Notes: generated by a model from the letters alone, not told the origin. Positions 1,394 to 33,717 are shown, counted from the stretch's first letter. The stretch: 64,000 bases of DNA from Bacteroidota bacterium (GCA_021299855.1 JAJTEY010000031.1:272-64271); one strand, 5' to 3'. Program-made: numbers and translations.

Positions 1394-2572
1394 ATGAAAT
1401 CTATACTTTCCGGTATACTGGTGCTGTGTACATCAGTTGGCTATACACAATGGACTGCTGTTCCATCAGGCACAGCAGAAGATTTAACGACTATATCATT
1501 TGCTAATTCCACTGTTGGATTAAGTTGCGGTAAACTAGCCGCTTCGGGACATTCTATTGTTATCAGAACAACTGATGGCGGTGCAACGTGGACGACAAAT
1601 CAAGCGGCTTTATCCGGAGTAGTTCGTGACATCGCTATGCATTCGGGGGGAAATGCAGTAATTGTAGGGGACAGCGGGCGTATTTACACGTCATCCGATT
1701 ACGGTGATACTTGGGCAAATCAAACGGCATTTACAAGTACTCAGTTAACTGCAGCACAATTTATCAGTAATAATTTGGTGTTGTGCGGGGATGGAGCAGG
1801 CAATCTCTACGCATCAAATGACGGTGGCATTAACTGGACTGCTACAGACACCGCTTTTGACGTTCGTGTTAACGAACTTCATTATCAAAACAACTTGTTA
1901 TGGTTATCCGGAGAAGGCGGGATATTAGCGTCATCTGCAGACACCGGAAATAGTTGGCAAGTTTATTCGCAACCGTATTTCGGTTTTTTCTCGGGTAACG
2001 GGATTGCTGTATTTGATACTGTTGGATATGCCGTGAGCGATTATGGTTTTGCGGTAAAATATAGTCCCACTTCGGGTTGGTCATCCTTAACAATTCCTTC
2101 AGCAAATACACTGAATTCAGTAGCATCAAGCAATTTATTAAGCGCGGTTATCATCGGAAATAATGGATTTATTTACCGTACCGAAGATGGGAATAACTGG
2201 ATCGATGAAACGTATTCCAATACAACGATTAACCTTACAGATGTTACTTATGTTGATGCTGCAACTGCGGTTATTTGCGGCACAGACGGTACTGTTCTGA
2301 AAAGCACGAATGATATCTCAGGGATTTCAGACGATAATACTGTTGTAGCCATCAGATTATATCCAAACCCTGCGACTAACGGCATAACGCTACAAAGCAA
2401 TCAAAACATGAAGCAAATTTTCATTTTTGATGTCTACGGGAAGTTGGTTGCATCTGAATCAATCTTGCAGGAAACAGCCTACATTAATATAGAACATTTA
2501 CATGCCGGCATGTATCTGCTGCGAGTAGAAACAGAGAGCGAAACTTCCGTAATGCCGTTTATTAAGCAATAA
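1394..2572 (+). CDS. Asp-box (BNR) beta-propeller protein, Ycf48/sortilin-like, with a T9SS type A CTD
   Basis: Signal peptide. Five S-x-D-x-G-x-(T/S/N)-W boxes (TTDGGATWT, SSDYGDTWA, SNDGGINWT, SADTGNSWQ, TEDGNNWI). C-terminus RLYPNPATNGITLQSN...MYLLRVETESETSVMPFIKQ. Confidence 0.8.
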   Translation: MKSILSGILVLCTSVGYTQWTAVPSGTAEDLTTISFANSTVGLSCGKLAASGHSIVIRTTDGGATWTTNQAALSGVVRDIAMHSGGNAVIVGDSGRIYTSSDYGDTWANQTAFTSTQLTAAQFISNNLVLCGDGAGNLYASNDGGINWTATDTAFDVRVNELHYQNNLLWLSGEGGILASSADTGNSWQVYSQPYFGFFSGNGIAVFDTVGYAVSDYGFAVKYSPTSGWSSLTIPSANTLNSVASSNLLSAVIIGNNGFIYRTEDGNNWIDETYSNTTINLTDVTYVDAATAVICGTDGTVLKSTNDISGISDDNTVVAIRLYPNPATNGITLQSNQNMKQIFIFDVYGKLVASESILQETAYINIEHLHAGMYLLRVETESETSVMPFIKQ

Positions 2573-2641: not shown

Positions 2642-4021
2642 ATGGCAGGCGGCAAACTTTCTCCACGACAAAAAATGATAGGCATGATGTACCTAGTACT
2701 GACTGCGCTATTAGCACTTAATGTTTCCAAGGAAATACTGGATGCATTTGTTACCGTAAACAAAGGACTTGAAACCACGGCAGCCAGCTTCGATCGCGGC
2801 ATTGGGCAACTTTATTCTGAATTTGATCAGAAAAAGAGTATTGATCCTTTGCGAATGCAACCAACCTGGGAAAAAGCCCAGCGCGTAAAAGCGCTTTCAA
2901 AAAAGTTGAATGAGCGAATAGATCTTTTAAAGAAGAGACTTATCCGAGAGACCGAAGGATATGTGAATCATGAAGGAGACACCATTCATTTACAGTATGT
3001 CAACTCCAAGGATAATTACGACATACCGACCAACATTATGATTGGCGCGTCAGAAGACGGCAGCAAAGGCGAAGCAAGAAACTTAAAACAAGAACTTCGA
3101 CACTATCAAAATGATTTACTGTCATTACTTAGAGAAGATGTGCGAAAAGACATACACTTCAGTTTCGACATAGAAGATCCGAAAGATGGCGGTGATTTAA
3201 AGACGTGGGAATTGAAAACCTTTTACCACACGCCACTCGCTGCAAGTGTGACTATTCTGTCCAAAATTCAGGATGATGTTAAAAGTGCTGAGCAAGATGT
3301 TTTAAATGCATTGATGCGCGAAACGGAAAGTGAAACAGCTAGGGAAGGTGTTTTCGAATATTCAGGAACTATAAAAATGACCACACCGAAAGGAAAACAA
3401 CTTTCATATCCATTCGCTTCTTCATACATCGTTGCGCGACCAACATTAACGGTAAGTGCAGATAAAATGAATGTGATGTACACCGGTTTAAAGAATCCAA
3501 TTTCGGTTTCCGTTCCTGGAGTTGCTAATGAGAATGTGACTGTTACATGCAGCAATGGAACTCTTTTAAAGTTGGGTAATGGTAAGTACGAGGTACAGTC
3601 TCCTCAACCCGGTAAATCTATTGTAACCGTTACCGCAACGTTGCCTTCGGGAGAGAAAAAAAGTATGGGCACGATGGAGTTTCGTGTTAAACGATTACCC
3701 AAACCTGAAGTAACAATTAGCGGCGTGATGGGAACAAGAGCAACAGCAGCCCAACTAGGAGTATCTCCCGGCATTGTTGCAGTTTATCCGAATACTGAAT
3801 TCGAAGATGCTAAGGTTCGCACCACTTCATTTCGTATTGAAGCTTATCAAAATGGTGTCGCCGTAATTGCGACAACAATAAACGGCAACATGTTCACTGC
3901 TGCATTGCAAGGTCAATTTCGATCACTACGAAAAGGAACCAAAGTTTATATTACAGAAATTAAAACTTCAGGCCCCGATGGTTTAGGTACAGCAAGCGAC
4001 ATCAGTATTACGATTCAATAG
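2642..4021 (+). CDS. gldM: GldM/PorM-like T9SS and gliding-motility protein, stand-alone copy
   Basis: The ATG at 2642 gives MAGGKLSPRQKMIGMMYLVLTALLALNVSKEILDAF, the hallmark GldM N-terminus plus a single TM helix. It runs 459 aa with a beta-rich C-terminal half (MEFRVKRLPKPEVTISG...). The 15 codons upstream in the ORF track start at TTG and look spurious. Confidence 0.85.
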   Translation: MAGGKLSPRQKMIGMMYLVLTALLALNVSKEILDAFVTVNKGLETTAASFDRGIGQLYSEFDQKKSIDPLRMQPTWEKAQRVKALSKKLNERIDLLKKRLIRETEGYVNHEGDTIHLQYVNSKDNYDIPTNIMIGASEDGSKGEARNLKQELRHYQNDLLSLLREDVRKDIHFSFDIEDPKDGGDLKTWELKTFYHTPLAASVTILSKIQDDVKSAEQDVLNALMRETESETAREGVFEYSGTIKMTTPKGKQLSYPFASSYIVARPTLTVSADKMNVMYTGLKNPISVSVPGVANENVTVTCSNGTLLKLGNGKYEVQSPQPGKSIVTVTATLPSGEKKSMGTMEFRVKRLPKPEVTISGVMGTRATAAQLGVSPGIVAVYPNTEFEDAKVRTTSFRIEAYQNGVAVIATTINGNMFTAALQGQFRSLRKGTKVYITEIKTSGPDGLGTASDISITIQ

Positions 4022-4182: not shown

Positions 4183-6450
4183 ATGATTACGATAAGAAAT
4201 GTTTACGTTTTAGTTTTAACCACAATCACGTTACTTACTGTGCAAAGCAACGTATTACGTGCGCAGTTGCAAGTAAACACCGCAGTAACCGCAAACCAAC
4301 TGGTGCAATCACTAATTGGAAGTGGAATTACCGTTTCGAACGTGCAATTGAATTGTCCTACAGGTGCATTCGGTTCATTCAGTAATGGCAATACGACTAA
4401 TCTTGGCATCAACTCAGGTATTATTCTTACTTCCGGAACTGCAGCAGTAGGCGGACCTGCAACGGGAAGTGCCAGTCAATGTTGGGGAACTACTGCAAAT
4501 GATCCCGACTTGATTGCAATTGATCCAACTGCCACTAATGATGTTTGTATTCTGGAGTTTGATATTATTCCTCAGTGTGATTCTTTGGAGATTCGATTCG
4601 TGTTCGGCTCGGAAGAGTACCCAACATTTGTAAACTCCATTAACGATTTGTTTGGCTTTTTCGTAACAGGTCCTAATCCTGCAGGGGGAAATTATACTTC
4701 GTTAAATATCGCGACGTTGCCTGTTGCCGGAAATCCGCCGGTTTCAATTAATACTGTGAATAACGGAAATGCGAATACAGGTCCGTGCACGAATTGCCAG
4801 TTTTATGTCAATAACATAGGTGGCCCATGGATTTTATATGATGGCATGACTACCGCTATTACTTCACGGTTGTGGATGGTGCCATGCCAGAGCTATCATT
4901 TCAAAATTGCCATCGCTGATGCGGCGGACTGTATCTTAGATTCAGGAGTATTAATTGATTTCTTAACATGTTCTTCGGCATTTACTTATACGACTGTAGA
5001 TCAGCCTGACGTTTGTAATTCCTGCACCGGTAGTGCAACAGTTAATATGAGCGGTGGAATTCCTCCTTATACGTACCAATGGTTGCCAAGTGGAGGAAAT
5101 GGCCCTACGGCAACAAATTTATGTGCGGGCACCTATTCTGTATTGGTAACTGATCAGGCGAGCTGCGGCATTCCTGATACAGTTGTGTTTAACATTGCGA
5201 ACAACGGTTCTATTGCTGTTCAAGCGCAGCAGTCAGACGCAACGTGTTTTGGAGATTGCAACGGAAGTATAACGGTTACACCTCAAGCTGGTAATCCGCC
5301 GTTCACTTATACGTGGAGTCCGAATGTTGGTACTACTGCGACAGTTAACGGGTTGTGTGTGGGCACTTATACGGTTGATGTGGCAGACGCGACAGGATGT
5401 ACTTCGCAATATACTTACAGCATCACTCAACCGACTCAATTAACCGGAACACTTACCGGCAATAACACCATTTGCGCCGGAGATCAAACAACAATAACTG
5501 CAACACCTGCCGGCGGGACAGGGCCATATACAGTAAGCTGGGACAACAGTTTACCGAATGGATTGACACAAACGGTTTCTCCGAGTGCAACGACTGTTTA
5601 TACCGCCACATTCACAGATGCCAACGGATGTAATATACAGCAGAGTTTCACCGTAACGATAGCACCTGCACCTGTTGCTGCAGTAGATCCACTTGTTGGT
5701 GATTGCGCTCCGGCAACTGTAGTATTTACTGATGCATCCACCGGCGCAACCTCGTGGCAATGGGATTTTGGCGATGTAGGTTCGCCATCAAACACTTCAA
5801 CGCAACAGAATCCTACTCACGTTTATTTGTCAGCCGGGACGTATAACGTAACACTGATTGTAAGCAATGCAGGAGGCTGTTCTGACACATTGTTAATTAC
5901 CAATGCAGTAACCATTTCACCTGATCCTATTGCAGGAGTAACAGTTAATACTGCTACCGTGAGTGAGTTATCTCCGGAAGTAGTGTTCACGGATTTATCA
6001 AATGGTGGAACTGATTGTATTCTTTACTTCGGAGACGGCGATTCGCTTGTAGGATGCAATTTTGGAAATGTCACGCATAGTTATCCTTCAGCAGGAGTTT
6101 ATACAGCAACAATGATTGTTACGAATGCCGATGGTTGTGCGGATACTGTTACAATTACTCTAGTCGTAGAGGAGGAAACTACGCTGTATGTTCCGAATGC
6201 ATTTACACCCAATGGAAGCGGCATTAACGATCAGTTCTTTGCATACGGCACCAAAGTGAAAGAATTTGAACTGTTAGTATTCGACCGTTGGGGAATGCTG
6301 ATCTTCCAATCCAATGACATTACAAAAGGATGGGATGGCACATTAAAAGGCAATCCTTGTCAACAAGATGTTTATGTTTGGAAAGTTACTTACACTGACC
6401 AACGAAACAAGCGCCACCGCATGATCGGTCATGTTAGCCTTATTCGCTAA
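4183..6450 (+). CDS. Large surface protein: choice-of-anchor-L-like N-terminal domain, SprB-type and PKD repeats, T9SS type B (CHU_C, gliding-associated) C-terminal domain
   Basis: Signal peptide. N-terminal LVQSLIGSGITVSNVQLNCPTGAFGSFSNG...FVFGSEEYPTFV...IADAADCILDSGVLI. PKD-like WQWDFGD...GTYNVTLIVSNAGGC. C-terminus YVPNAFTPNGSGINDQFF...WDGTLKGNPCQQDVYVWKVTY...GHVSLIR. Confidence 0.85.
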   Translation: MITIRNVYVLVLTTITLLTVQSNVLRAQLQVNTAVTANQLVQSLIGSGITVSNVQLNCPTGAFGSFSNGNTTNLGINSGIILTSGTAAVGGPATGSASQCWGTTANDPDLIAIDPTATNDVCILEFDIIPQCDSLEIRFVFGSEEYPTFVNSINDLFGFFVTGPNPAGGNYTSLNIATLPVAGNPPVSINTVNNGNANTGPCTNCQFYVNNIGGPWILYDGMTTAITSRLWMVPCQSYHFKIAIADAADCILDSGVLIDFLTCSSAFTYTTVDQPDVCNSCTGSATVNMSGGIPPYTYQWLPSGGNGPTATNLCAGTYSVLVTDQASCGIPDTVVFNIANNGSIAVQAQQSDATCFGDCNGSITVTPQAGNPPFTYTWSPNVGTTATVNGLCVGTYTVDVADATGCTSQYTYSITQPTQLTGTLTGNNTICAGDQTTITATPAGGTGPYTVSWDNSLPNGLTQTVSPSATTVYTATFTDANGCNIQQSFTVTIAPAPVAAVDPLVGDCAPATVVFTDASTGATSWQWDFGDVGSPSNTSTQQNPTHVYLSAGTYNVTLIVSNAGGCSDTLLITNAVTISPDPIAGVTVNTATVSELSPEVVFTDLSNGGTDCILYFGDGDSLVGCNFGNVTHSYPSAGVYTATMIVTNADGCADTVTITLVVEEETTLYVPNAFTPNGSGINDQFFAYGTKVKEFELLVFDRWGMLIFQSNDITKGWDGTLKGNPCQQDVYVWKVTYTDQRNKRHRMIGHVSLIR

Positions 6451-7074
6451 CTATTCTGCCACAACTTCGGTAACACCGGGAACCATACGTTTCAATAACG
6501 CTTCAATTCCTGATTTTAATGTGATGGCTGAAGAAGGACAACCGTGGCAAGATCCGCGCAATTGAACGGTCACAACACCTTCGCTAAACGATTTGAAGGT
6601 AATCAATCCTCCATCCTGCTCTACTGCCGGACGAATGTACTGCTCCAGCACTTCAACTATTTTATGTTCAGCATCTGTTTGTGGAACAGCGTGCTCAGTG
6701 AATACAGTTGTTGTAGTTTTAAACGAACTGTCCGTGTGTACTTCAGCTTGAGGCGCTTCTTCTACAGCCAATTCATTATGCAACAAGTGTTCACGAATGA
6801 ACTCACGTAATTCCAAAAGAATATCGTCCCACGTAATGGAATCGCTTTTTGAAATAGTAATATAATTCGCCGAAACAAAAACGCCCTTAACAAAAGGGAA
6901 TTGCAACAATTTAGCCGCTAATGGAGAACCTTTTGTTTCCTGAGCATTGGTGTAATTAGCAGTAGCCGCATCAGCAATCAGCATTCGGTTAGCAACAAAT
7001 TTCATCGTTGCAGGATTCGGTGTGCTTTCAGCGTATATGACGATCGGAATAATTTTCTTTTCAGTTGTTTCCAT
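6451..7074 (-). CDS. NifU/Nfu-type Fe-S cluster scaffold protein (Nfu_N plus NifU C-terminal domain)
   Basis: C-terminal LRGSCHGCPSSAITLKSGIE (CxxC NifU motif). N-terminal IYAESTPNPATMKFVAN Nfu_N-like segment. Confidence 0.8.
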   Translation of the reverse strand: METTEKKIIPIVIYAESTPNPATMKFVANRMLIADAATANYTNAQETKGSPLAAKLLQFPFVKGVFVSANYITISKSDSITWDDILLELREFIREHLLHNELAVEEAPQAEVHTDSSFKTTTTVFTEHAVPQTDAEHKIVEVLEQYIRPAVEQDGGLITFKSFSEGVVTVQLRGSCHGCPSSAITLKSGIEALLKRMVPGVTEVVAE

Positions 7075-7078
7075 AATG

Positions 7079-7086
7079 CAAAGGTA
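7079..7086 (-). promoter_or_regulatory. -7 promoter box TACCTTTG, 4 nt from the nfu-like start codon
   Basis: The minus strand reads TACCTTTG-CATT-ATG (plus strand caaaggta at 7079-7086; start codon at 7072-7074). Confidence 0.5.
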
Positions 7087-7128
7087 GGAAAGGATTATTT
7101 GAGGACTATCATTACAACATGAAAAGCC

Positions 7129-7136
7129 TACTTTTG
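7129..7136 (+). promoter_or_regulatory. -7 promoter box for nadB
   Basis: tacttttg lies 11 nt upstream of the ATG at 7148. Confidence 0.5.
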
Positions 7137-7147
7137 TTTATTACAGT

Positions 7148-8725
7148 ATGGCTAAAACAATTCACACCGAATTTCTTGTAATTGGATCCGGTATCGCAGG
7201 GCTTTCTTATGCTTTGAAAGTAGCGAACCACGGAAAGGTTATTTTGATAACTAAGGCATCAGAAGATGAGTCCAACACGAAATACGCACAAGGTGGGATT
7301 GCGGCTGTGATGTACGAGCCCGATTCATACGAAAAACATATAGCAGATACGATTGCCTGTGGTGACGGCTTGTGTGATCCTGAAATAGTGCGTTTTGTGA
7401 TTCGGGAGAGTACAGAACGTGTTCAGGAGTTAGCGGCCTGGGGAGCACAATTTGATCGCAAAGAGGATGGAAATTACCAGTTAGCGAAAGAAGGCGGTCA
7501 TACAGAACCACGCATTCTCCATCATAAAGACATCACCGGTTTCGAAATTGAACGGGCATTATTAGCACAGGTTAACGCACATCCAAACATTGAGATCTTC
7601 GATCATCATTTCGCTATAGATATTATCACTCAACACCATTTGGGCATTGAAGTGAACAGCAGAACTCCCGACATACAATGTTATGGCGCCTACGTATTAA
7701 ACACGAATAACGGAGAGGTAGATACTGTTCTTGCTAAAATTACCCTAATGGCTACAGGCGGAGCCGGACATGTTTATGCGACAACTACAAATCCTATTAT
7801 CGCTACAGGCGATGGCGTAGCGATGGTCTATCGCGCGAAGGGGAAAGTGGAGAACATGGAATTTATTCAGTTTCATCCGACATCACTTTACAATCCTGGA
7901 GAACATCCTTCGTTTTTAATTACTGAAGCGATGCGTGGGCACGGAGGAATTTTGCGCACACAGGATGGCAAAGAGTTCATGCACAAATATGACGATCGAA
8001 AATCTTTAGCGCCACGGGATATTGTTGCGCGCGCGATTGACAACGAAATGAAAATTCGTGGAGAAGATTTTGTGTACTTGGATTGCACACATCTTGATGC
8101 GGACGATTTGATTCAGCACTTCCCTAATATCCACGAAAAGTGTTTGTCGCTGGGAATAGATATGCGAAAAGATTTTATTCCCGTTGTTCCGGCCATGCAT
8201 TACATGTGTGGTGGCGTGAAGGTGGACTTACAAGGCAGAAGCAGCATTGACAGACTATATGCTGCAGGCGAATGTTCGTGCACAGGATTACACGGTGCAA
8301 ATCGTCTGGCATCGAACTCTCTATTAGAAGCAGTTGTATATGCGCATGCTGCCGCACAAGACAGCATTCAGCGTATTCAAGAGCTTGATTTCCGCGATGG
8401 CATTCCGCATTGGGATGCAGAAGGTACAGATGCTCCTGAAGAAATGGTCCTCATTACCCAAAGTTTGCGCGAAGTACAAACAATTATGAGCAATTATGTG
8501 GGCATAGTTCGATCTGATTTGCGTTTACGACGCGCACACGACCGACTTGAAATTTTATGGTTGGAAAATGAAGCGTTGTACAAGAAGATTACCGTTTCGC
8601 AGAAAGTGTGTGAATTGCGGAATGTGATTACAGTGGCTTATACCATTATTAAACATTCGTTGGCGCGCAAAGCAAGTTGCGGATTGCATTACAGTCTGGA
8701 CTATCCGCCTGTTAAAAAAAACTAA
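7148..8725 (+). CDS. nadB: L-aspartate oxidase
   Basis: FAD-binding VIGSGIAGLSYA, the succinate dehydrogenase/fumarate reductase flavoprotein fold, MHYMCGGV and GANRLASNSLLE motifs. 525 aa. Confidence 0.9.
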   Translation: MAKTIHTEFLVIGSGIAGLSYALKVANHGKVILITKASEDESNTKYAQGGIAAVMYEPDSYEKHIADTIACGDGLCDPEIVRFVIRESTERVQELAAWGAQFDRKEDGNYQLAKEGGHTEPRILHHKDITGFEIERALLAQVNAHPNIEIFDHHFAIDIITQHHLGIEVNSRTPDIQCYGAYVLNTNNGEVDTVLAKITLMATGGAGHVYATTTNPIIATGDGVAMVYRAKGKVENMEFIQFHPTSLYNPGEHPSFLITEAMRGHGGILRTQDGKEFMHKYDDRKSLAPRDIVARAIDNEMKIRGEDFVYLDCTHLDADDLIQHFPNIHEKCLSLGIDMRKDFIPVVPAMHYMCGGVKVDLQGRSSIDRLYAAGECSCTGLHGANRLASNSLLEAVVYAHAAAQDSIQRIQELDFRDGIPHWDAEGTDAPEEMVLITQSLREVQTIMSNYVGIVRSDLRLRRAHDRLEILWLENEALYKKITVSQKVCELRNVITVAYTIIKHSLARKASCGLHYSLDYPPVKKN

Positions 8726-19558: not shown

Positions 19559-20907
19559 TTAAAATGGGGCGCCGAAATGAATAAACAATCCGTGTTCCAT
19601 CATTCGGTTAACACTGTACTCGATACGTCCTACCATATCGTAATACGTAACTACATCGAAGCCGATTCCGGCACCACCTAGCCATGCATCACCGAGTTTA
19701 TTGTAATCTGTAAATGCCGAAGTGCGATCCTCGACATAACCAACATCAACAAAGGTTCCCACGTAAAGCGCGAGATGCAGTGTATTAAACTTTTCCAGGG
19801 GAATGAACTTAAATTTGATGGTGGTAGGTTTCAGCAGCTGGTACTTGAAATTTACTTTTCCCAATACAAAATTCTGCCCGTCGATTACGTAGTATTCATA
19901 TCCGCGAACGTAAGGACCGAAACCGAATGCCCGCTGGTGAAAATAAGGCGGCGTTCCATAAGGTAAAACACGCAAACGAATCATACCTGCCGTGAAAAAA
20001 CGACCCACCACATTTCGATAACAGCGCGCACCCAGTGTTATGAAAAACACATCCAGCTTTTCTTCAGACAGTACACCAAGACCGTGTTTCGTCACTTCTG
20101 CTTCCAGAAAATAGCCTTTCAACGGATATGGTTTTAAGTCGCGCAGATCGCGCAAAAACCGATACGATAAAGTGAAATACGCCGCGCGAGTTCCTGCATC
20201 CGGAAGATATTCTGAGGTATACGATGCCACTGTATCATGCAATCTGAAATCTGCAAAACGCACATCCAATTGATGCTTGTTATACAATCCTTTGCGGTAC
20301 GTAAATGCAACAGAACTTTGCCACTCTTCGCGCACAAAATCATCTTCCAGTCGAAAAAAACGGAGCTTGTTATTTTCTGTATTGTAAGCTACCTCATGAT
20401 TCTGCGTATACGTAGTAGTAACCGTATTGCAGCAATTACTTCTTTTCGTCCACGAAAATTGTAACGCGTCAAAAACATGCCGTAGTTTGCACGACGCAAA
20501 TTTCGTCCGTTGCGCCACCACGTATTGAAGTTAGGCTCTACAACTTCAAAAACCGGTACCGGCCAGGTGTACCAACGTTCTTTGACTACAATTTCTATAT
20601 CAACCGTAACACAACCCGTTCCACTGCTGTCGAGTACGCACAAGGGTGTCATCGTGACAAAATTGAACAAGGAAGTATTGAGCAGATTTTGACGGGATCG
20701 TTCAATTACTTCGTTAAACTTTCCCGCATCAATCGTATCTCCCGATTTAAAAGCCAGTTCACGATCAATAATAAACGGCTTAGTGGTTTTATTCCCGGTA
20801 ATAGAAATATTCCGGACAACGAAAAAGGCTGTATCCTGCCCGGCCGCAAGGAATTTTGCATGAAACAGTAATACGATGATCGGTAATAAACGGAATGATG
20901 AACTCAT
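19559..20907 (-). pseudogene. BamA/surface-antigen (D15)-like POTRA plus beta-barrel gene split over two frames
   Basis: ORF 20389..20907 carries a signal peptide, a POTRA segment (VVRNISITGNKTTKPFIIDRELAFKSGD) and ...WWRNGRNLRRANYGMFLTRYNFRGRKE. ORF 19559..20521 carries the barrel (…NHEVAYNTENNKLRFF…GRIEYSVNRMMEHGLFIHFGAPF). The frames overlap at 20389-20521, and the second ORF has no credible start of its own. Confidence 0.7.
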
Positions 20908-23296: not shown

Positions 23297-23737
23297 ATGA
23301 CAACAGCAGAAATTATTACCAACAAAGGCACCATGAAGGTGGAACTTTTTGATCAGGACGCGCCGAAGACGGTAGCCAACTTCGTAAAACTTGCGAATGA
23401 AGGTTTTTATAAAGGACTGAAGTGGCATCGTGTTCTTCCCGGATTTGTAATTCAGGGCGGCTGTCCTAACACGCGCGAAGGTGCTTCAGGAATTCCGGGT
23501 ACCGGTGGACCCGGATACGCCATTGAATGCGAACTCACCGGAAACAATCAGTTTCACGATAAAGGCGTTTTATCCATGGCGCATCGCGGACTCAATACAG
23601 GAGGTTCTCAGTTCTTCGTTTGCCTCAGTCGCATACCATACATCCTTATAGCAAACGGGCTGGTCATAAAAATCCGGCCCGTTTATTTTTTTCGCGTTAA
23701 ACTTGTATATGGACATTCAGCCCACAGAACGGAATAA
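23297..23737 (+). pseudogene. Cyclophilin-type peptidyl-prolyl isomerase, 3'-truncated
   Basis: Residues 1-112 are cyclophilin-like (FHRV-type WHRVLPGFVIQGGCP, GGPGY, VLSMAHRGLNTGGSQFFVC). After about nt 23633 the reading frame (IPYILIANGLVIKIRPVYFF...) loses similarity and runs through a terminator hairpin. Confidence 0.6.
23653..23692 (+). terminator. Rho-independent terminator lying inside the cyclophilin ORF tail
   Basis: aaacgggc (23653-23660) pairs with gcccgttt (23677-23684), followed by attttttt. Confidence 0.75.
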
Positions 23738-24650
23738 GTTTATTCTAAGCGGCACAACCGGCAGAAACGATTGGTGGCGCTATGTGCTGATTGTGCTGAT
23801 GTCCTTGGTCGGTTATGTCATCGGTTCCATTCCACTTCTGATTTTTCAGATGCGCGCCATAACATCGGGACAAGTTGCCATCAACGATCCGGAACTAACA
23901 GCTAAGCTGCTTAATCCTGAAATTATGGGATTGTCGCCACACGCCATGCTGGCGTTGACACTGTTCATCTTTGTAGTGGCTATGATCGGCTTGTTGGTTG
24001 GAGTAAAATTTATTGCGGGCAAAACAATCTCATCTATTATTACCGGCTACGGCAAAGTAAGATGGAAGCGTGTCGCAGCAGGTGCAGGCTGGTGGGCGCT
24101 TTTGTCGGCCATTTCAACCGCGATAGTAATTGGCGCAGATCCTCAGAACTACGAATGGACGTTTAATGCAGCGCCATTTTTCGCGACGCTGGCTATCGGG
24201 ATTTTATTACTGCCAATACAAACGTGGTGGGAAGAATTTTTATTTCGTGGCTATCTCCTGCAGGGAATAGCGAATAGTTTTCAAAAACCGTGGGCAGGAT
24301 TACTAGGCACCAGTTTGTTGTTTGCCGCCATGCACATGATGAATCCTGAAGTTGAGAAATACGGTATTCTTGCCACATTTCCACAGTACTTAATTCCGGC
24401 TTTAATGCTTGGATTTATAACGCTGATGGATGAAGGACTTGAGTTAGCCATGGGCATGCATTTCGCCAATAATCTTTTTGGCACTATTGTCGTAACCAGC
24501 AGCAACAGTGCAATACAGGCCAGCACCTTGTGGCGAGCCCACCAAACCGACTCCGGAATTGACTCCATTATTTTAATTAGTCAAAGTATATTATTTATAA
24601 TAATTCTTTGGTGGAAATTCAAATGGCAAATTCAAAAACTCAACTATTAA
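23709..24650 (+). CDS. CPBP-family intramembrane glutamic endopeptidase (CAAX protease / Abi-like)
   Basis: Multi-TM protein with WWEEFLFRGYL, FAAMHM and HFANN motifs. Confidence 0.85.
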   Translation: MDIQPTERNKFILSGTTGRNDWWRYVLIVLMSLVGYVIGSIPLLIFQMRAITSGQVAINDPELTAKLLNPEIMGLSPHAMLALTLFIFVVAMIGLLVGVKFIAGKTISSIITGYGKVRWKRVAAGAGWWALLSAISTAIVIGADPQNYEWTFNAAPFFATLAIGILLLPIQTWWEEFLFRGYLLQGIANSFQKPWAGLLGTSLLFAAMHMMNPEVEKYGILATFPQYLIPALMLGFITLMDEGLELAMGMHFANNLFGTIVVTSSNSAIQASTLWRAHQTDSGIDSIILISQSILFIIILWWKFKWQIQKLNY

Positions 24651-24652
24651 GC

Positions 24653-26503
24653 ATGTATAAATTCGTCCTTTCTATTTCGTTGATTTGTTCATCCCTGTTT
24701 GTTCAGGCTCAACAATCCGAAAACGCTTATAAATTTTCGGTGGATCTGACCAAAGTTTTTAAAGATCAACTTACCGTAGAATTAACACCGCCACAAATCA
24801 ACACCGATACCGTACTGTATCGGTTCCCGGCTATGGTTCCGGGCACGTATAAGGTTTATAATTTCGGACGATTCATCACCGACTTCGTAGCGCTGGATGC
24901 TGCGGGCAATGAATTAAGTTACGTTAAGCCCGATCGCAACTCCTTCCAAATTGCGGATGCAAAAAAGATCAAGAAGATTCGCTATAAAGTAGAAGACACC
25001 TGGGATACTGATAAGCGCGCTGATTTTGTATTTGAGCCTGCAGGAACAAATATTCAGAAAGACACCAACTATGTATTAAACAATCATGGTTTCTTCGGAT
25101 ACTTCGAAGGAATGACCAAAGTACAATACGAGGTGATGGTCAAACATCCTGAAGGTATGTACGGTTCAACCGGCTTAAATAATGTAAAGCGAGAAGGAAA
25201 CGAAGACACCTATTATGTCAATAACTATCATGATTTGGTGGACGGCCCGATAATGTACTGTAAGCCCGACACTACGTGGTTAAACGTCGGCGGAACGAAA
25301 GTTCTTATTTCTGTGTATTCGCCGAAAAAGCTGGTGAGTTCAAAATTCGTAGCGGACAGTTTACACGACATTCTTGAATATCAACGTTTGTACTTAGGCG
25401 GAACACTACCCGTAAACAATTATGCTTTTATTATCTACCTCACCGGAAACGAAGACGGATTTAAGTCAGGTTCTTATGGCGCGTTGGAACATTCCTATTC
25501 ATCTATGTACACCTTGCTGGAAATGGAACCCGCCGAAATTGCTCAAACCGTGAAGGATGTTGCTGCCCATGAGTTTTTTCACATTGTAACACCATTAAAT
25601 ATTCACTCGTATGAAATTGGCGACTTCGATTTTAATAAACCCAAAATGTCCATGCACCTATGGATGTATGAAGGATTAACCGAATATGCCGCGCATCATG
25701 TCCAGGTGAAGTATGGTAAAATGTCCTTGAATGCGTTCATCGATGTATTGAGTGAAAAAATGAACATCGCAGATCGCTACAATGATACATTGCCATTTAC
25801 ACGCATGAGTTTATTGTGTTTGGATGAACATGAGAAAGAATACGGCAATGTTTATCAGAAAGGTGCATTGATCGGAATGTGTCTGGATATTCAATTGCGC
25901 CACTTGTCGAAAGGTCAGTACGGCACACAAGAACTTATGGCTGATCTATCCAAGAAATACGGAAAGGACCGCAGCTTTAATGATGACTCGTTGATTACAG
26001 AAATTGTGCGATTAACGTATCCCGAGATTGGTGAATTTTTCAAAAAATATGTGATGGGCAATGAGCCTATTCCGTATGGAAAATATTTGGAAATGGTAGG
26101 ATTGAATTATGAAGCTTCGCGTACAGAAATGGTTTTAGATCCACTCGGCGGATACTTCTTTATTCAGGATAATCAGGGGAACGTGCGAATTTATGGCCCT
26201 GAACCGAACAGCTTCGGTAACGATATCGGATACAAGAATTTTGATGTGATCAAATCCATCAACGGGAAAAAGGTAACGCCTCAAAATATGGAACAAGTGC
26301 TTGGAGAATTAAAACAAATGAAAGAAGGCACAAAACTGAAAATTAAAATTATTCGGGGCGGAATCTTTGGAATACCGAAACAAAAAATGACGTTAAAAGG
26401 CACCTTGCGTAAATCAGAAAAGGTAACACGACACATTATCACCATTGACAAAGGAGCAAGCGAGACACAGCTATTGTTACGTAAGTTCTGGATTAACAAA
26501 TAA
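24653..26503 (+). CDS. M61-family (glycyl aminopeptidase-like) zinc metallopeptidase with a C-terminal PDZ domain
   Basis: Signal peptide MYKFVLSISLICSSLFVQAQ. HExxH as AAHEFFH with downstream YEGLTEY. C-terminal PDZ-like DVIKSINGKKV. Confidence 0.8.
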   Translation: MYKFVLSISLICSSLFVQAQQSENAYKFSVDLTKVFKDQLTVELTPPQINTDTVLYRFPAMVPGTYKVYNFGRFITDFVALDAAGNELSYVKPDRNSFQIADAKKIKKIRYKVEDTWDTDKRADFVFEPAGTNIQKDTNYVLNNHGFFGYFEGMTKVQYEVMVKHPEGMYGSTGLNNVKREGNEDTYYVNNYHDLVDGPIMYCKPDTTWLNVGGTKVLISVYSPKKLVSSKFVADSLHDILEYQRLYLGGTLPVNNYAFIIYLTGNEDGFKSGSYGALEHSYSSMYTLLEMEPAEIAQTVKDVAAHEFFHIVTPLNIHSYEIGDFDFNKPKMSMHLWMYEGLTEYAAHHVQVKYGKMSLNAFIDVLSEKMNIADRYNDTLPFTRMSLLCLDEHEKEYGNVYQKGALIGMCLDIQLRHLSKGQYGTQELMADLSKKYGKDRSFNDDSLITEIVRLTYPEIGEFFKKYVMGNEPIPYGKYLEMVGLNYEASRTEMVLDPLGGYFFIQDNQGNVRIYGPEPNSFGNDIGYKNFDVIKSINGKKVTPQNMEQVLGELKQMKEGTKLKIKIIRGGIFGIPKQKMTLKGTLRKSEKVTRHIITIDKGASETQLLLRKFWINK

Positions 26504-26504
26504 G

Positions 26505-27560
26505 ATGAACCGAGCACCACTGCAACGATCTCAGATTTATTGGCTGCTTCAAATTGCAGGGTGGTTATCGTTTACCCTTTTAAATCTGGCATTTGTTTAC
26601 TTGAATAATCAGGTAACACCGGAGTTACTGTTCGGATTGTTGATGGTATTTGTTGTCGGAATTGGTTTAACTCAGATCATTCGGGGAATCATCATTCGAT
26701 TTCATTGGGTGAAACTTGGTGTTGCGGCAATGTTACCGCGCATTATGTTGTTGTGCATTTTGTGTGGTGTCGGAATGGCAAGCATAGACAGAATTGTAGA
26801 TTATCTTTTATCGCCTGATGTATCGCTGGTTGAACAGCCGATTCGATTTGCGCTGAACGTGCTCAATTTCTCCTTTGTCTTTTTATTTTGGTCTGCGATA
26901 TATTATTTGTTTCATTTTATCGTCAATTTCAGAAAAGCTGAAATAGAAAATTTAAAATGGGAAGCTGCAATTTCAGAAGCGGAATTGAATAGGCTAAAAT
27001 CGCAGCTAAATCCGCATTTCCTTTTTAATGCAATGAATGCGATACGCGCATTGGTAGATGAGAACCCGGTAAAAGCGAAAGAAGCGATTACCCAGTACTC
27101 CAATATTCTACGCAGCACCTTGCAGATGGGAAAAAGTAAATTAATACCGTTGCATCAGGAAATGGCGTTGGTGAAGGATTATTTGGCGTTGGAGGGAATT
27201 CGTCTGGAAGAGCGATTACGCTTGAACATACAAGTTGACGATAACGCAACCAATGCGCAGCTTCCTCCTATGATGTTGCAAACATTGGTAGAAAACGGCA
27301 TTAAGCATGGTATTTCAAAACTTCCGAAAGGAGGCGAGCTGTCCATTCACGCTACATTGAACAATCACATTTTACAAATCAAGATTGCCAATAGCGGTCA
27401 TTACGACGAAACAGCAATTTCGGAAAGCGGATTCGGAATTGCGAATACTCTGGAGCGGCTGAAATTACTGTACGGAAATCAAGCTAGCTTCAGGATAGAA
27501 AACTCCGAACCGAATTTGGTAATTAGTCAACTTTTCATTCCCCAAAATACCGGCTTATGA
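26505..27560 (+). CDS. LytS/YehU-type sensor histidine kinase with a membrane-embedded input
   Basis: About four TM helices with negligible loops, then LKSQLNPHFLFNAMNAI (His_kinase PF06580-type H-box) and an HATPase region LVENGIKHG...GFGIAN. Confidence 0.85.
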   Translation: MNRAPLQRSQIYWLLQIAGWLSFTLLNLAFVYLNNQVTPELLFGLLMVFVVGIGLTQIIRGIIIRFHWVKLGVAAMLPRIMLLCILCGVGMASIDRIVDYLLSPDVSLVEQPIRFALNVLNFSFVFLFWSAIYYLFHFIVNFRKAEIENLKWEAAISEAELNRLKSQLNPHFLFNAMNAIRALVDENPVKAKEAITQYSNILRSTLQMGKSKLIPLHQEMALVKDYLALEGIRLEERLRLNIQVDDNATNAQLPPMMLQTLVENGIKHGISKLPKGGELSIHATLNNHILQIKIANSGHYDETAISESGFGIANTLERLKLLYGNQASFRIENSEPNLVISQLFIPQNTGL

Positions 27561-28279
27561 AAGTAATTATTGTTGATGATGAACGTCTGGCACGACAGGA
27601 GCTGAAATCTATGCTCAGCACATTTCCGAATATGGAAATTATCAGCGAATGCAGCGATGCGGAAAGCGCAATAGAAGTTATTGATCAGTTGAAACCGGAT
27701 GTGGTGTTTCTCGACATTCAGATGCCGGGAAAAACAGGATTTGATGTATTAGAAGAACTCACTGCTGTTCCGCATGTGGTATTTGTAACTGCACACGACG
27801 AATTTGCAATAAAAGCATTTGAAGTAAATGCACTGGACTATTTACTAAAACCTGTGCAACCCGCGCGATTAGCGAACGCCATTAAAAAGCTTAACGAGAA
27901 TATTCAGCAAGACAATGGAACCCGCACGCAAGGCGAACATGTATTGAGTGAAAACGATCAGGTTTTCGTGAAAGACGGAGAGAAATGTTGGTTTGTGAAA
28001 CTGTCGGATGTGCGATTATTTGAATCAGAAGGAAATTACGTGCGGATTTATTTTAATCAAAACAAACCGCTCATACTTCGTTCACTGAATTATTTGGATG
28101 AACGTTTGGATCAAAAGATTTTCTTTCGTGCCAGCAGGAAACATTTGATCAATTTAAGTTGGGTTGATTCCATTGAACTATGGTTTAACGGAGGACTCAT
28201 GGTGAAGTTGAAAGGTGGTGAACAAGTGGAGATTTCCAGAAGACAAGCCGTTAAACTTAAGGAGATGATGAGTTTGTAG
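27557..28279 (+). CDS. LytTR-family response regulator
   Basis: Receiver domain (IIVDDE...VFLDIQMPG...LDYLLKP) plus a C-terminal LytTR domain (RLFESEGNYVRIYF...FFRASRKHLINL). The ATGA overlaps the kinase stop. Confidence 0.9.
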   Translation: MKVIIVDDERLARQELKSMLSTFPNMEIISECSDAESAIEVIDQLKPDVVFLDIQMPGKTGFDVLEELTAVPHVVFVTAHDEFAIKAFEVNALDYLLKPVQPARLANAIKKLNENIQQDNGTRTQGEHVLSENDQVFVKDGEKCWFVKLSDVRLFESEGNYVRIYFNQNKPLILRSLNYLDERLDQKIFFRASRKHLINLSWVDSIELWFNGGLMVKLKGGEQVEISRRQAVKLKEMMSL

Positions 28280-28374
28280 ACTGAGATAGGTCTACACGCG
28301 AATTCATTATTGAGTCGCAATGTATGATTAGGCACAATTTTTGGTTTCTTTAGGTGTAATAATAATACCTCCCA

Positions 28375-29304
28375 ATGAAAAAAATCTATACGCTACTACT
28401 TTTTATTGCCACGTTCTTACAAGTTTCCGCACAAACGAAAACATCCGTAAATAATGGCGATTGGTACGATCCCGCTACGTGGAACCCTACCGGAGTTCCG
28501 GATTTGCAAACGCAGCAAATCATCATTAATTCTCACGTCACCTTTGTTCAGAGTATTTTAATCGGTGGTAATTGCGACGAATTTCGCATCGAATCGAGTG
28601 CTACATTAACTGATTTGAACGTCGACGACACGCTGATTATCGGTTCACGGATTTTCAGAAACAACGGTGCTGCAACCATCGGATTTTTAAGCGGAGAACC
28701 TTCCGATTCTACCATCAATAATGGCTCTCTTAAAATCACCACAGATTATGTACAAAGTGGCACTTGCGTGAATACAGACAGCGGCGCAATTTGCGTTACC
28801 AATCAGTTAACGACCGGCGATGATTTTATTAATAACGGGGATGTTGCTGCCTACAACTGGATAAATGGTGCTGCAGTAACCGGTAATCAAGGACAATTTT
28901 GTGTTGCTAATTGGTTTATCAATGGAGATCAGATTAACGGAACCGTTGACGTTTGTGACGCAACTCCGGGCTCTCAATTTGATGTTGTGGGAATGGTAGG
29001 CAATCAAGTTACGTTTTGCGCACAAGGTCCGTGCAATACGTGTGCGACGACTTCCATAAACGAACATGAAGCAATAGCTCTGACCATTTATCCTAATCCT
29101 GTTACTATCGGTGGGCCGCTATACGTTGTAACAACTATTGAATCAACGGTGAACATTTTTGATGCACAGGGCAAATTGTGCTTAATGTATGTGCAACAAA
29201 CCGGAACCCAAAGCGTGAATACATCTGCATTAACTACCGGCATCTATTATTTGTCCGTAAAATCAGGAACAGCGGTAAGCACAAGAAAAATTGTGATTTA
29301 CTAA
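28375..29304 (+). CDS. Secreted protein of unknown function with a T9SS type A CTD
   Basis: Signal peptide. C-terminus LTIYPNPVTIGGPLYVV...GIYYLSVKSGTAVSTRKIVIY. Confidence 0.75.
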   Translation: MKKIYTLLLFIATFLQVSAQTKTSVNNGDWYDPATWNPTGVPDLQTQQIIINSHVTFVQSILIGGNCDEFRIESSATLTDLNVDDTLIIGSRIFRNNGAATIGFLSGEPSDSTINNGSLKITTDYVQSGTCVNTDSGAICVTNQLTTGDDFINNGDVAAYNWINGAAVTGNQGQFCVANWFINGDQINGTVDVCDATPGSQFDVVGMVGNQVTFCAQGPCNTCATTSINEHEAIALTIYPNPVTIGGPLYVVTTIESTVNIFDAQGKLCLMYVQQTGTQSVNTSALTTGIYYLSVKSGTAVSTRKIVIY

Positions 29305-29348
29305 ACTCGAGTTTATAAATAATAGCAGGCAGCTGTAAGTAAACGTAT

Positions 29349-29507
29349 TTACGATACGTGGGTTACAGTTGTCTGTTCTTCCATCGACCAGGTCAGGTCA
29401 TCCGTTTCGGCATGTTCTACCGGAGCATTGAATTGAATCGGCATAAAATTAAGCAACACGCACAATAACGCGAAAATCAAAAGCAGGATAAGCGACATAG
29501 CGTCCAT
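29349..29507 (-). CDS. Possible 52-aa single-TM micro-protein (below the ORF-track cutoff)
   Basis: Hand translation gives MDAMSLILLLIFALLCVLLNFMPIQFNAPVEHAETDDLTWSMEEQTTVTHVS. One hydrophobic helix and an acidic tail. No homology evidence. Confidence 0.3.
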   Translation of the reverse strand: MDAMSLILLLIFALLCVLLNFMPIQFNAPVEHAETDDLTWSMEEQTTVTHVS

Positions 29508-29580
29508 TATATTGGTTACGCTAAATTCTATGATTGGTATTAAGCCAACGTAACCGTAACATCAAACTTTCCTGATGTTT

Positions 29581-30174
29581 TCAGAAATGATGTGGTCCGG
29601 GAAAATTGCTTTTGATAAAGCGCATGAGTTCGGGAAAATAATCCAGAAACTCCCTTGAGAACAAATCATAGTGTTGCTCCAACAGCATATGAGATGTTTC
29701 CATTTTCGATTCATACCGGGCGCGTCGTGCCATTCCGCCCATCACCCGCTCTATCCCCTTAACCGTGCGATAACTCATCAACCAATCGCCGCTTTTCATG
29801 TGCTTCAAAATGAATGCAGAACGTTCCGGCATAATAGCGTGATGTCGATTGAGGGTAACGTACGATTGCTGGGCAAAGTCAGTTAATCTTTCGGAGCTAA
29901 ATTGATTCCAATGCACCGCCAAAAAATGATCGTAGAAAATATCAATAATCACGGGGGCGTAATGTCTGTACTCCGCCCTTAATCGTTGTGTACTCTGAAG
30001 CACCAAAGGATGATGATCAGTAAAGTGATCGATGGCTCTGTGCATTCGAATTCCTGCAGCAACTTCAGGATCATACTTCGAAAAATCCGCGCCTTTCACC
30101 GCATCAGCAATGAAATTGCCCACCAGCCAAGGCTCCGATTTACCGGACAAATAAAAATGCGCCAGATAGTTCAC
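29581..30174 (-). CDS. acpH: Acyl carrier protein phosphodiesterase
   Basis: GTG start. The N-terminus MNYLAHFYLS...VGNFIADAVKG is characteristic of AcpH. 197 aa. Confidence 0.8.
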   Translation of the reverse strand: MNYLAHFYLSGKSEPWLVGNFIADAVKGADFSKYDPEVAAGIRMHRAIDHFTDHHPLVLQSTQRLRAEYRHYAPVIIDIFYDHFLAVHWNQFSSERLTDFAQQSYVTLNRHHAIMPERSAFILKHMKSGDWLMSYRTVKGIERVMGGMARRARYESKMETSHMLLEQHYDLFSREFLDYFPELMRFIKSNFPGPHHF

Positions 30175-33716: not shown

Positions 33717-33717
33717 T

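What the first reader, a model, noticed from the sequence alone, without database searches (positions are those of the whole stretch)
2642..4021. Stand-alone gldM-like gene among T9SS cargo genes, with no gldK, gldL or gldN nearby
**Seen in sequence.** The ORF has the hallmark GldM/PorM N-terminus and single TM helix (MAGGKLSPRQKMIGMMYLVLTALLALN). It keeps the Arg in the SPRQK segment, which I recall as the residue coupling GldM to GldL in published GldLM motor structures. The periplasmic region looks full length.

**Unexpected context.** In described Bacteroidota, gldM sits in a gldK-gldL-gldM-gldN block, and GldM works only as a GldL5-GldM2 motor.
- The upstream neighbour here is an Asp-box beta-propeller carrying a type A CTD.
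- The downstream neighbour is a choice-of-anchor-L adhesin carrying a type B CTD.
- Nothing in the 64 kb resembles GldL, GldK or GldN.

**Hypothesis.** An orphan motor-stator paralogue next to two cargo classes could be a dedicated or alternative periplasmic driveshaft. It might borrow GldL from the canonical locus and serve a subset of substrates.
Basis: partly seen in the sequence, partly recalled or inferred. Interest (0 to 1): 0.7.

Follow-up and report, generated by a model that had tools for sequence, protein, structure and literature searches.

The report
Stand-alone gldM with deleted shaft domain
This is a real gene for the rotor shaft of the Bacteroidota secretion and gliding motor, one of a conserved group that sits away from its usual partner genes and has a fast-changing tip, but this particular copy has lost most of one shaft domain.

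Summary
The ORF at 2642-4021 (+) is a genuine PorM/GldM gene: TIGR03517 scores 286 bits against a cutoff of 180, and PorM and GldM are the best matches among solved structures. The flanking cargo genes are as described, and no gldK, gldL, gldN or porP lies in the 64 kb.

The protein is not full length. A clean 189-bp in-frame deletion removes 63 residues, six of the eight strands of domain D2. All 21 near-identical relatives have 522 aa, or are shorter fragments, with the same neighbours.

**The stand-alone arrangement is not a one-off.**
- All 27 related loci examined lack gldK/L/N nearby.
- Their GldMs form one clade (bootstrap 87), seen only in uncultured Bacteroidia.
- In this clade the membrane helix and D1-D3 are well conserved.
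- The tip domain D4 evolves about twice as fast as in operonic GldM.
- Demonstrable second gldM copies in four other loci show the same fast D4.
- In 69 of 69 sampled metagenome loci, gldL is followed by gldM.

**Reading.** I favour an extra-operonic paralogue that uses a GldL encoded elsewhere (about 0.6). I could not count gldM copies in any host genome, so a relocated sole copy remains possible (about 0.3).

The parts
2642..4021 (+). gldM/porM-family gene, 459 aa. It is a stand-alone copy carrying an internal in-frame deletion.
   Evidence: ORF. Pfam and TIGR03517 matches. PorM 7CMG and GldM 6YS8 are the best matches among solved structures, by sequence and by fold.
2666..2668 (+). Codon for Arg9 in the SPRQKM motif at the start of the membrane helix.
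   Evidence: Sequence. Nearly invariant in the clade. Aligned with Arg9 of F. johnsoniae GldM. Its role in coupling to GldL is recalled from Hennell James et al. 2021 and was not re-read here.
2675..2743 (+). Single transmembrane helix (about residues 12-34), the part that would sit inside a GldL pentamer.
   Evidence: Helix from residue 8 in the AF2 model. Residues 1-30 are 84-86% identical across stand-alone and operonic GldMs. GldL and GldM interact through their membrane helices (PMC8986121).
2732..3319 (+). Domain D1, the helical bundle (residues 31-226).
   Evidence: Pfam GldM_1st, E 1.1e-40, profile positions 1-193 of 194. Helical in the model. Foldseek TM 0.77-0.82 to the GldM chains of 7SAU and 7SAX.
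3333..3334 (+). Junction of a 189-bp in-frame deletion relative to near-identical relatives.
   Evidence: blastn against L001 gives two collinear blocks and a gap of 189 bp with only 1 bp of microhomology. All other members of the 90% cluster are 522 aa or fragments. Every other hit in the exhaustive search aligns in two or more pieces split near residue 231.
3329..3436 (+). Remnant of domain D2 (residues 230-265): the last two of eight beta-strands.
   Evidence: Pfam GldM_2nd matches only profile positions 62-97 of 98. In the AF2 model it is a hairpin at 236-264 with pLDDT 53-72. The full-length relative has eight strands across 240-328. The lost segment holds 10 invariant and 13 nearly invariant columns of the clade.
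3446..3691 (+). Domain D3 (residues 269-350).
   Evidence: Pfam GldM_3rd, E 3.5e-23, profile positions 2-82 of 82. pLDDT about 85-90.
3698..4015 (+). Domain D4 (residues 353-458), the tip. It folds well but evolves fast in this clade.
   Evidence: Pfam GldM_4th, E 3.4e-12. pLDDT about 90. At D1 identity 0.54-0.67, D4 identity is 0.33-0.36, against 0.54-0.69 in operonic GldM.
1394..2572 (+). Upstream neighbour: BNR/Ycf48-like beta-propeller with a type A T9SS sorting domain.
   Evidence: It holds the same position in L001-L004, L006-L010, L055 and L177, but at only 23-31% identity outside the species.
4183..6450 (+). Downstream neighbour: adhesin with choice-of-anchor-L, SprB and PKD domains and a type B sorting domain.
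   Evidence: It is 62% identical and in the same position in L002-L008.
6451..8725 (.). Housekeeping genes nifU (-) and nadB (+), which anchor the synteny of the shallow sub-clade.
   Evidence: Identity to relatives is 68-81%.

Best explanation
**What it is.** The ORF is a true PorM/GldM rotor-shaft gene. It belongs to a conserved, monophyletic group of gldM genes that stand alone on the chromosome in uncultured Bacteroidia, with no gldK, gldL or gldN nearby.

**Shown**
- Family membership.
- The stand-alone arrangement in 27 of 27 loci of the clade.
- Strong conservation of the membrane helix, including Arg9, and of domains D1-D3.
- Roughly two-fold faster divergence of the tip domain D4 than in operonic GldM.

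**Inferred**
- These are extra-operonic paralogues.
- Their products assemble through the conserved membrane helix with GldL made from a canonical gldKLMN operon elsewhere in the genome, giving a GldL5-GldM2-type proton-driven motor.
- The variable tip is no longer held to the conserved GldN/PorN docking site, so it couples the motor to a different or more variable periplasmic partner.

**This copy**
- A 189-bp in-frame deletion has removed six of the eight strands of D2.
- The encoded shaft is shortened and probably misfolded at that joint.
- This allele is most likely impaired. It is either a strain-level variant tolerated because the gene is not the only gldM, or an error of this one assembly.
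For: **Family**
- TIGR03517 scores 286 bits against a cutoff of 180, and three of four Pfam GldM domains match in full.
- The full-length twin P0002 aligns end to end with PorM 7CMG (E 8e-58) and GldM 6YS8 (E 1e-45).
- Foldseek's top hits are 7CMG, 6EY4, 6EY5, 7SAU and 6YS8.

**Stand-alone clade**
- L001-L012, 14 loci from the genome scan, L177, L178 and L179 all lack GldK, GldL and GldN within the DNA held.
- The 66 other scanned loci are porP-gldK-gldL-gldM-gldN.
- Monophyly has bootstrap support 87/100. No operonic sequence falls inside the clade even after adding 19 further representatives.

**Not a degenerate family member**
- Full-length stand-alone copies score 315-355 bits on TIGR03517, against 328-386 for operonic copies.

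**Tip signature**
- For pairs with D1 identity 0.60-0.75, D4 identity is 0.36 in stand-alone copies and 0.69 in operonic copies.
- For D1 0.5-0.6 the figures are 0.33 and 0.54.
- Against an outside clock, stand-alone pairs (NadB 76-81% identical) have D4 identity 0.26-0.38. The operonic pair L093/L058 (MiaB 74%, GldK 78%) has 0.56.

**Same signature in proven paralogues**
- L092, L138 and L141 carry an operonic gldM plus a second gldM 3-5 kb downstream, without a second gldL.
- The second copies form a clade (bootstrap 100) that is sister to their own operonic copies (bootstrap 96).
- Their D4 identity is 0.36-0.47, while the operonic copies of the same genomes keep 0.77-0.85.

**No lineage seen without an operonic gldM**
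- In 69 of 69 metagenome loci whose contig continues past gldL, gldM follows.

**Deletion**
-.
- D4 docks on PorN in the current model of the ring (PMC12635249).
Against: - No host genome was shown to hold both a stand-alone and an operonic gldM.
Each search lists only its 120 best hits, so this says little either way.
- The genome scan was cut at 600 pattern matches. Its patterns (QKMIGMM, NVSKEILD) cannot see operonic copies such as L093, which reads QKMINLM.
- The gldL sample of 69 loci was filtered for similarity to one query. It could have missed a lineage that makes up only 2-3% of Bacteroidota.
- The stand-alone clade has a short stem and ordinary family scores, as expected also for an orthologue that merely moved.
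- Fast D4 evolution could have another cause, such as co-evolution with a fast-evolving GldN in this lineage.
- The window holds three other frameshift-split genes. The assembly may not be reliable enough to trust the deletion.
Confidence: 0.55

Rival explanations
1. It is a relocated sole copy. In this uncultured lineage the gldKLMN operon was broken once, and gldM now sits alone. It is still the only GldM and works with GldL, GldK and GldN encoded elsewhere, exactly as in Flavobacterium.
For: - All stand-alone copies form one clade with a short stem among operonic clades.
- Their TIGR03517 scores equal those of operonic copies.
- The membrane helix and D1-D3 are under strong constraint.
- No assembly or contig with a stand-alone copy was seen to hold an operonic one.
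- The clade appears confined to uncultured Bacteroidia, as a lineage-specific rearrangement would be.
Against: - No gldL without a following gldM appeared among 69 informative loci.
- The D4 tip, which must dock on the GldN ring if this is the only GldM, diverges twice as fast as in every operonic clade. It behaves like the D4 of proven second copies.
- A consensus allele lacking most of D2 would disable the whole T9SS of an organism whose genome is rich in T9SS cargo.
Confidence: 0.3
2. The deletion is an assembly artefact. The organism carries the ordinary 522-aa stand-alone gldM, and the 459-aa form exists only in this MAG's consensus sequence.
For: - The short form occurs in one record only (MCE2772976.1), against 21 near-identical sequences from other assemblies, most of them 522 aa and the rest shorter fragments.
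- No other representative among 1.84 billion shares the gap.
- The same 64 kb holds three frameshift-split genes, at 33631-36050, 43289-45299 and 19559-20907.
Against: - The junction has only 1 bp of microhomology and no repeat that could make an assembler collapse the region.
- The loss is exactly 63 codons.
- The flanking 8.4 kb aligns to L001 without a single small indel.
Confidence: 0.3
3. It is a dedicated driveshaft for the neighbouring cargo. On this view the stand-alone GldM serves the flanking type A and type B substrates in particular.
For: The order BNR-propeller(CTD-A), gldM, SprB/PKD adhesin(CTD-B) recurs in the window, L001-L004, L006-L010, L055, L177 and L178.
Against: - The propeller is only 23-31% identical between these loci, while gldM is 58-70% identical.
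- L005 lacks the adhesin.
- Deeper members of the same clade lie next to an amidase and priA, dnaN, an ACP phosphodiesterase, a MATE transporter and other housekeeping genes.
- Proven second copies sit between an ABC-F ATPase and era/der.
- The linkage looks like inherited synteny, not a functional module.
Confidence: 0.08

Closest known systems
Operonic GldM of Flavobacterium johnsoniae and PorM of Porphyromonas gingivalis (PDB 6YS8, 6EY4, 7CMG, 7SAT)
   Same: - The architecture is the same: a short cytoplasmic tail with Arg9, one membrane helix, a helical D1 and three beta-sandwich domains.
- The full-length twin aligns along its whole length and the folds match.
- It scores above the equivalog cutoff.
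   Different: - It is not encoded between gldL and gldN.
- D4 evolves much faster in its clade.
- This allele lacks six of the eight D2 strands.
Second gldM copies just downstream of gldKLMN in some Flavobacteriales-like metagenome lineages (loci L092, L138, L141; independently L137), found here
   Same: - gldM is duplicated without gldL.
- The membrane helix is conserved.
- D4 is the fastest-diverging domain.
- The neighbours are housekeeping genes.
   Different: - Those copies lie within 5 kb of the operon and are sister to their own operonic copy.
- The window's clade is a separate, older clade and is never near the operon in 27 loci.
GldN/GldO, the described T9SS core paralogue pair in F. 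johnsoniae (PMC9127263)
   Same: It is a precedent for duplication of a single core component of the gldKLMN block.
   Different: GldO is a tandem, partly redundant copy of the ring protein. Here the duplicated part would be the inner-membrane rotor, dispersed in the genome. I found no description of gldM paralogues in the papers searched.

Membership tests
PorM/GldM (TIGR03517; Pfam GldM_1st to GldM_4th) | Whole-protein score above the curated equivalog cutoff | tested here: met
   286.4 bits against a cutoff of 180. The full-length twin P0002 scores 355 bits.
PorM/GldM (TIGR03517; Pfam GldM_1st to GldM_4th) | N-terminal single membrane helix preceded by the conserved Arg (Arg9 in F. johnsoniae) | tested here: met
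   The N-terminus reads MAGGKLSPRQKMIGMMYLV, against MAGGKLTPRQKMINLMYLV in 6YS8. It is helical from residue 8.
PorM/GldM (TIGR03517; Pfam GldM_1st to GldM_4th) | Complete periplasmic shaft D1-D2-D3-D4 | tested here: not met
   D1, D3 and D4 are complete. D2 is reduced to profile positions 62-97 of 98, and 63 residues are missing.
PorM/GldM (TIGR03517; Pfam GldM_1st to GldM_4th) | Encoded in a porP-gldK-gldL-gldM-gldN block | tested here: not met
   No GldK, GldL, GldN or PorP profile hit in the 64 kb. The same holds in 27 related loci.
PorM/GldM (TIGR03517; Pfam GldM_1st to GldM_4th) | Forms a GldL5-GldM2 proton-driven complex | not testable with these tools
   No GldL of this genome was available and no complex prediction tool was on hand.
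Extra-operonic gldM paralogue (as in L092, L138, L141) | An operonic gldM is present in the same genome | tested here: inconclusive
   The rest of the genome could not be reached. Contig-length matching after the GldL and GldK searches found nothing. The scans were truncated.
Extra-operonic gldM paralogue (as in L092, L138, L141) | Conserved membrane helix and D1-D3, with an accelerated D4 | tested here: met
   for the stand-alone clade. for the proven second copies.
Extra-operonic gldM paralogue (as in L092, L138, L141) | No gldL of its own next to it | tested here: met

The most novel reading that the evidence does not exclude
Some Bacteroidia run two kinds of T9SS/gliding motor on one GldL stator. 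One is the operonic GldM, whose tip docks on the GldKN ring. The other is a dispersed GldM whose conserved shaft carries a rapidly diversifying tip, coupling proton-driven rotation to another periplasmic or outer-membrane target. That target could be a gliding track or lineage-specific surface machinery.
Probability: 0.3. Interest if true: 0.75.

Novelty: new variant of a known kind. Interest (0 to 1): 0.5.

Why it matters
GldLM is one of the few known ion-driven rotary motors. It is currently modelled as a single motor type that serves both secretion and gliding.

A conserved class of gldM genes with no gldL of their own and a fast-diversifying tip would imply rotor swapping on a shared stator. 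That would give a handle on how motor output is directed to different targets. It would also affect genome annotation and T9SS-prediction tools that assume one co-located gldKLMN block.

For this particular window the practical message is more modest. The gene is real, but this allele is truncated internally and should not be taken as a model of the family.

Tried and rejected
**Attempts to reach the rest of a host genome**
- The exact look-up of the window's GldM and of its BNR neighbour found no record.
- A GldL search (L058 query) and a GldK profile search were read for proteins lying on contigs of the same length as contigs carrying a stand-alone gldM (4,962,732; 1,623,603; 1,181,472; 667,010 bp and others). 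There were no matches.
- Comparing NCBI accession numbers to find proteins of one MAG gave no matches.
- P0213, a GldL with no close relative among my operonic loci, was looked up as a possible 'gldL without gldM'. It proved to be an ordinary porP-gldKLMN operon of the OLB10 lineage.
- The genome-collection scan did not return the window's own genome and was cut at 600 matches.

**Taxonomy and host lineage**
- Shared flanking genes between stand-alone and operonic loci were too few to place the lineage.
- Tetranucleotide similarity did not discriminate.

**Other checks**
- Unannotated 180-200-aa ORFs near stand-alone gldM in relatives were checked as possible hidden gldL. They look like small outer-membrane barrel proteins or unrelated proteins and have no homologue in the window.
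- Sigma-70-type promoter and terminator scans around the gene were no better than shuffled sequence for promoters. They gave nothing usable, and Bacteroidota promoters are not covered.
- Literature searches for gldM paralogues or orphan gldM found nothing relevant.
- McBride and Zhu 2013 and Hennell James et al. 2021 are not held.

Full report
**1. The observation**

The ORF at 2642-4021 (+) encodes 459 aa beginning MAGGKLSPRQKMIGMMYLVLTALLALN.
- Pfam finds GldM_1st (E 1e-40, full), GldM_3rd (E 3.5e-23, full) and GldM_4th (E 3.4e-12).
- GldM_2nd matches only its last third, profile positions 62-97 of 98.
- The NCBIfam equivalog TIGR03517 scores 286 bits against a cutoff of 180.

- Upstream is a BNR/Ycf48-like propeller with a type A sorting domain.
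- Downstream is a choice-of-anchor-L/SprB/PKD protein with a type B sorting domain.

To test 'nothing resembles GldL, GldK or GldN', I took operonic loci fetched later and confirmed seed proteins with NCBIfam. From these I built GldK, GldL, GldN and PorP profiles using 60-69 sequences each. No window ORF of 70 aa or more matched any of them, even at E <= 10.

**2. The protein is not full length**

The exact protein exists once in the public collection. It is MCE2772976.1, named 'hypothetical protein', from a Bacteroidetes MAG contig of 68,472 bp.
- Its nearest relative, P0002, is 99% identical but 522 aa long.
- At DNA level the window and P0002's contig (L001) are 99.8% identical over 8.4 kb, with no small indels.
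- The one difference is a clean 189-bp gap after window position 3333. It has 1 bp of microhomology and no flanking repeat.
- Most of the 21 other members of the 90% cluster are 522 aa; the rest are shorter (507 aa) or fragments. They include copies on a 667-kb and a 65-kb JGI contig with the same gene order.
- In an exhaustive search of 1.84 billion representatives, every other GldM aligns to the window protein in two or more pieces broken near residue 231. None shares the gap.

The lost segment is P0002 residues 232-294.
- It holds 10 invariant and 13 nearly invariant columns of the clade.
- AlphaFold models show eight D2 strands in P0002.
- In the window protein only a low-confidence hairpin remains (residues 236-264, pLDDT 53-72).
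- D1, D3 and D4 are confidently folded.
- Foldseek's best matches are PorM 7CMG and GldM 6EY4/6YS8.
- P0002 aligns end to end with both proteins, and Arg9 is aligned.

**3. The stand-alone arrangement is conserved**

Look-ups of relatives at 40-70% identity all showed gldM without gldK, gldL or gldN within 10 kb.
- The nearer relatives keep the order propeller, gldM, adhesin, nifU, nadB.
- The more distant ones have quite different, mostly housekeeping neighbours.

A scan of one genome per species returned 80 loci (cut at 600 matches, best 80 kept).
- 66 are porP-gldK-gldL-gldM-gldN.
- 14 are stand-alone.

Phylogeny:
- In neighbour-joining trees all stand-alone GldMs form one clade among the operonic clades, with bootstrap 87/100.
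- Adding 19 more 50%-identity representatives brings no operonic sequence into the clade.
- Its earliest-branching member also has no gldL upstream and a MATE-like gene downstream.
- Source names in the clade are almost all 'Bacteroidia/Bacteroidota bacterium' MAGs. No isolate appeared.

**4. Sole relocated gene or paralogue?**

I could not read the rest of any host genome, so this rests on indirect evidence.

(a) *Family scores.* Full-length stand-alone copies score 315-355 bits on TIGR03517, like operonic copies at 328-386. They are not degenerate.

(b) *Domain-wise divergence differs sharply.*

| Pairs compared | D4 identity, stand-alone | D4 identity, operonic |
|---|---|---|
| D1 identity 0.60-0.75 | 0.36 | 0.69 |
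| D1 identity 0.50-0.60 | 0.33 | 0.54 |
| D1 identity 0.75-0.97 | 0.48 | 0.83 |

- These values come from pairwise global alignments after removing near-duplicates (first seen).
- The membrane helix and D1-D3 are conserved as well as, or better than, in operonic copies.
- An outside clock gives the same answer. Window species against L002, L006, L009 and L055, with NadB 76-81% identical, has D4 identity 0.26-0.38. The operonic pair L093/L058, with MiaB 74% and GldK 78%, has 0.56.
- D4 is the domain modelled to sit in the cleft between PorN subunits of the ring (PMC12635249).

(c) *Proven gldM-only duplications exist and show the same signature.*
- L092 (genome scan) and L137, L138 and L141 (metagenome scan) each carry an operonic gldM plus a second gldM 1-5 kb downstream, with no second gldL.
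- The L092, L138 and L141 second copies form a clade (bootstrap 100) that is sister to their own operonic copies (bootstrap 96).
- Their D4 identities are 0.36-0.47. The operonic copies of the same genomes keep 0.77-0.85.

(d) *Every sampled gldL is followed by gldM.*
- I scanned JGI metagenomes with the conserved N-terminal domain of GldL and obtained 80 loci.
- In all 69 whose contig continues past gldL, gldM follows directly.
- If the stand-alone lineage lacked an operonic gldM and made up 2-5% of the sample, one to three exceptions were expected. This is weak evidence, because the tool keeps only the 80 matches most like the query.

(e) *The deletion allele.* A consensus allele lacking most of a strongly conserved domain is easier to tolerate if another gldM exists.

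Against the paralogue reading:
- No co-occurrence was demonstrated.
- The clade's short stem and normal family scores fit simple relocation as well.
- The scan patterns could not have seen operonic copies with a different N-terminal motif.

I put paralogue at about 0.6 and relocated sole copy at about 0.3.

**5. Mechanism**

Shown:
- A complete membrane helix with the conserved Arg.
- A helical D1, plus D3 and D4.
- No gldL nearby.

From established knowledge, GldM works as a dimer inside a GldL pentamer, contacts GldL through the membrane helices, and transmits proton-driven movement through its periplasmic arm to the GldKN ring or the gliding machinery. This rests on PMC8986121, PMC12635249, and Hennell James et al. 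2021 and Leone et al. 2018 from memory.

Inferred:
- The stand-alone GldM uses GldL made elsewhere.
- Its tip is released from the conserved docking constraint.

- The flanking genes change across the clade.
- The upstream propeller is poorly conserved even where it is present.

For this allele, the loss of six of eight D2 strands should shorten or destabilise the arm, so I expect reduced or no function. Alternatively the deletion is an assembly error. The window also holds three frameshift-split genes, although the junction has no repeat that would explain a collapse.

**6. Novelty**

- The gene family is well known.
- I found no description of gldM-only paralogues or of a stand-alone gldM clade. 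The only described paralogue within the block is GldN/GldO.
- The clade-level pattern is therefore a new variant of a known kind and of moderate interest.
- The specific gene in the window is an internally deleted member of it.

Noticed in passing
L092:16515-18143; L137:5438-7165; L138:8369-10075; L141:8019-9707: A second gldM gene lies 1-5 kb downstream of a complete gldKLMN(N) operon, without a second gldL. Three of the four form a conserved paralogue clade with a fast-evolving D4. The neighbours are an ABC-F ATPase, era and der.
   Followed up: yes
window 33631-36050 (+), 43289-45299 (+), 19559-20907 (-): Three genes each appear split into two overlapping or adjacent ORFs by a frame change or stop. 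They are a TonB-dependent-receptor-like protein, a PKD/CHU_C type B cargo protein, and a POTRA/surface-antigen outer-membrane protein. They are either pseudogenes or consensus errors in this MAG.
   Followed up: partly
window 4183-6450, 41381-43249, 43289-45299: Three proteins carry type B (CHU_C) sorting domains, but no PorP/SprF-family gene lies anywhere in the 64 kb (profile search). Such partner genes are often adjacent to type B cargo.
   Followed up: partly
L093 1-13338 and many operonic loci (for example L058, L054, L039, L047): The block upstream of the operon is widely conserved: sigma-54 activator, miaB, topA, an arginase-family gene, porP, then gldK-gldL-gldM-gldN.
   Followed up: no
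window 23703-30174 versus L012:8446-14487 and L014:11799-16263: A block of CPBP protease, M61 peptidase, histidine kinase, LytTR regulator and ACP phosphodiesterase lies directly beside the stand-alone gldM in two more distant relatives. In the window it lies about 20 kb away, so gldM and this block have been separated by rearrangement.
   Followed up: no
window 2642-4021: NCBI's pipeline names this protein 'hypothetical protein', while full-length relatives are named GldM. The deletion is presumably the reason.
   Followed up: partly
L070:9134-11589: In this long-read MAG both gldL and gldM of the operon are split into two ORFs. These look like frameshift errors rather than biology.
   Followed up: no
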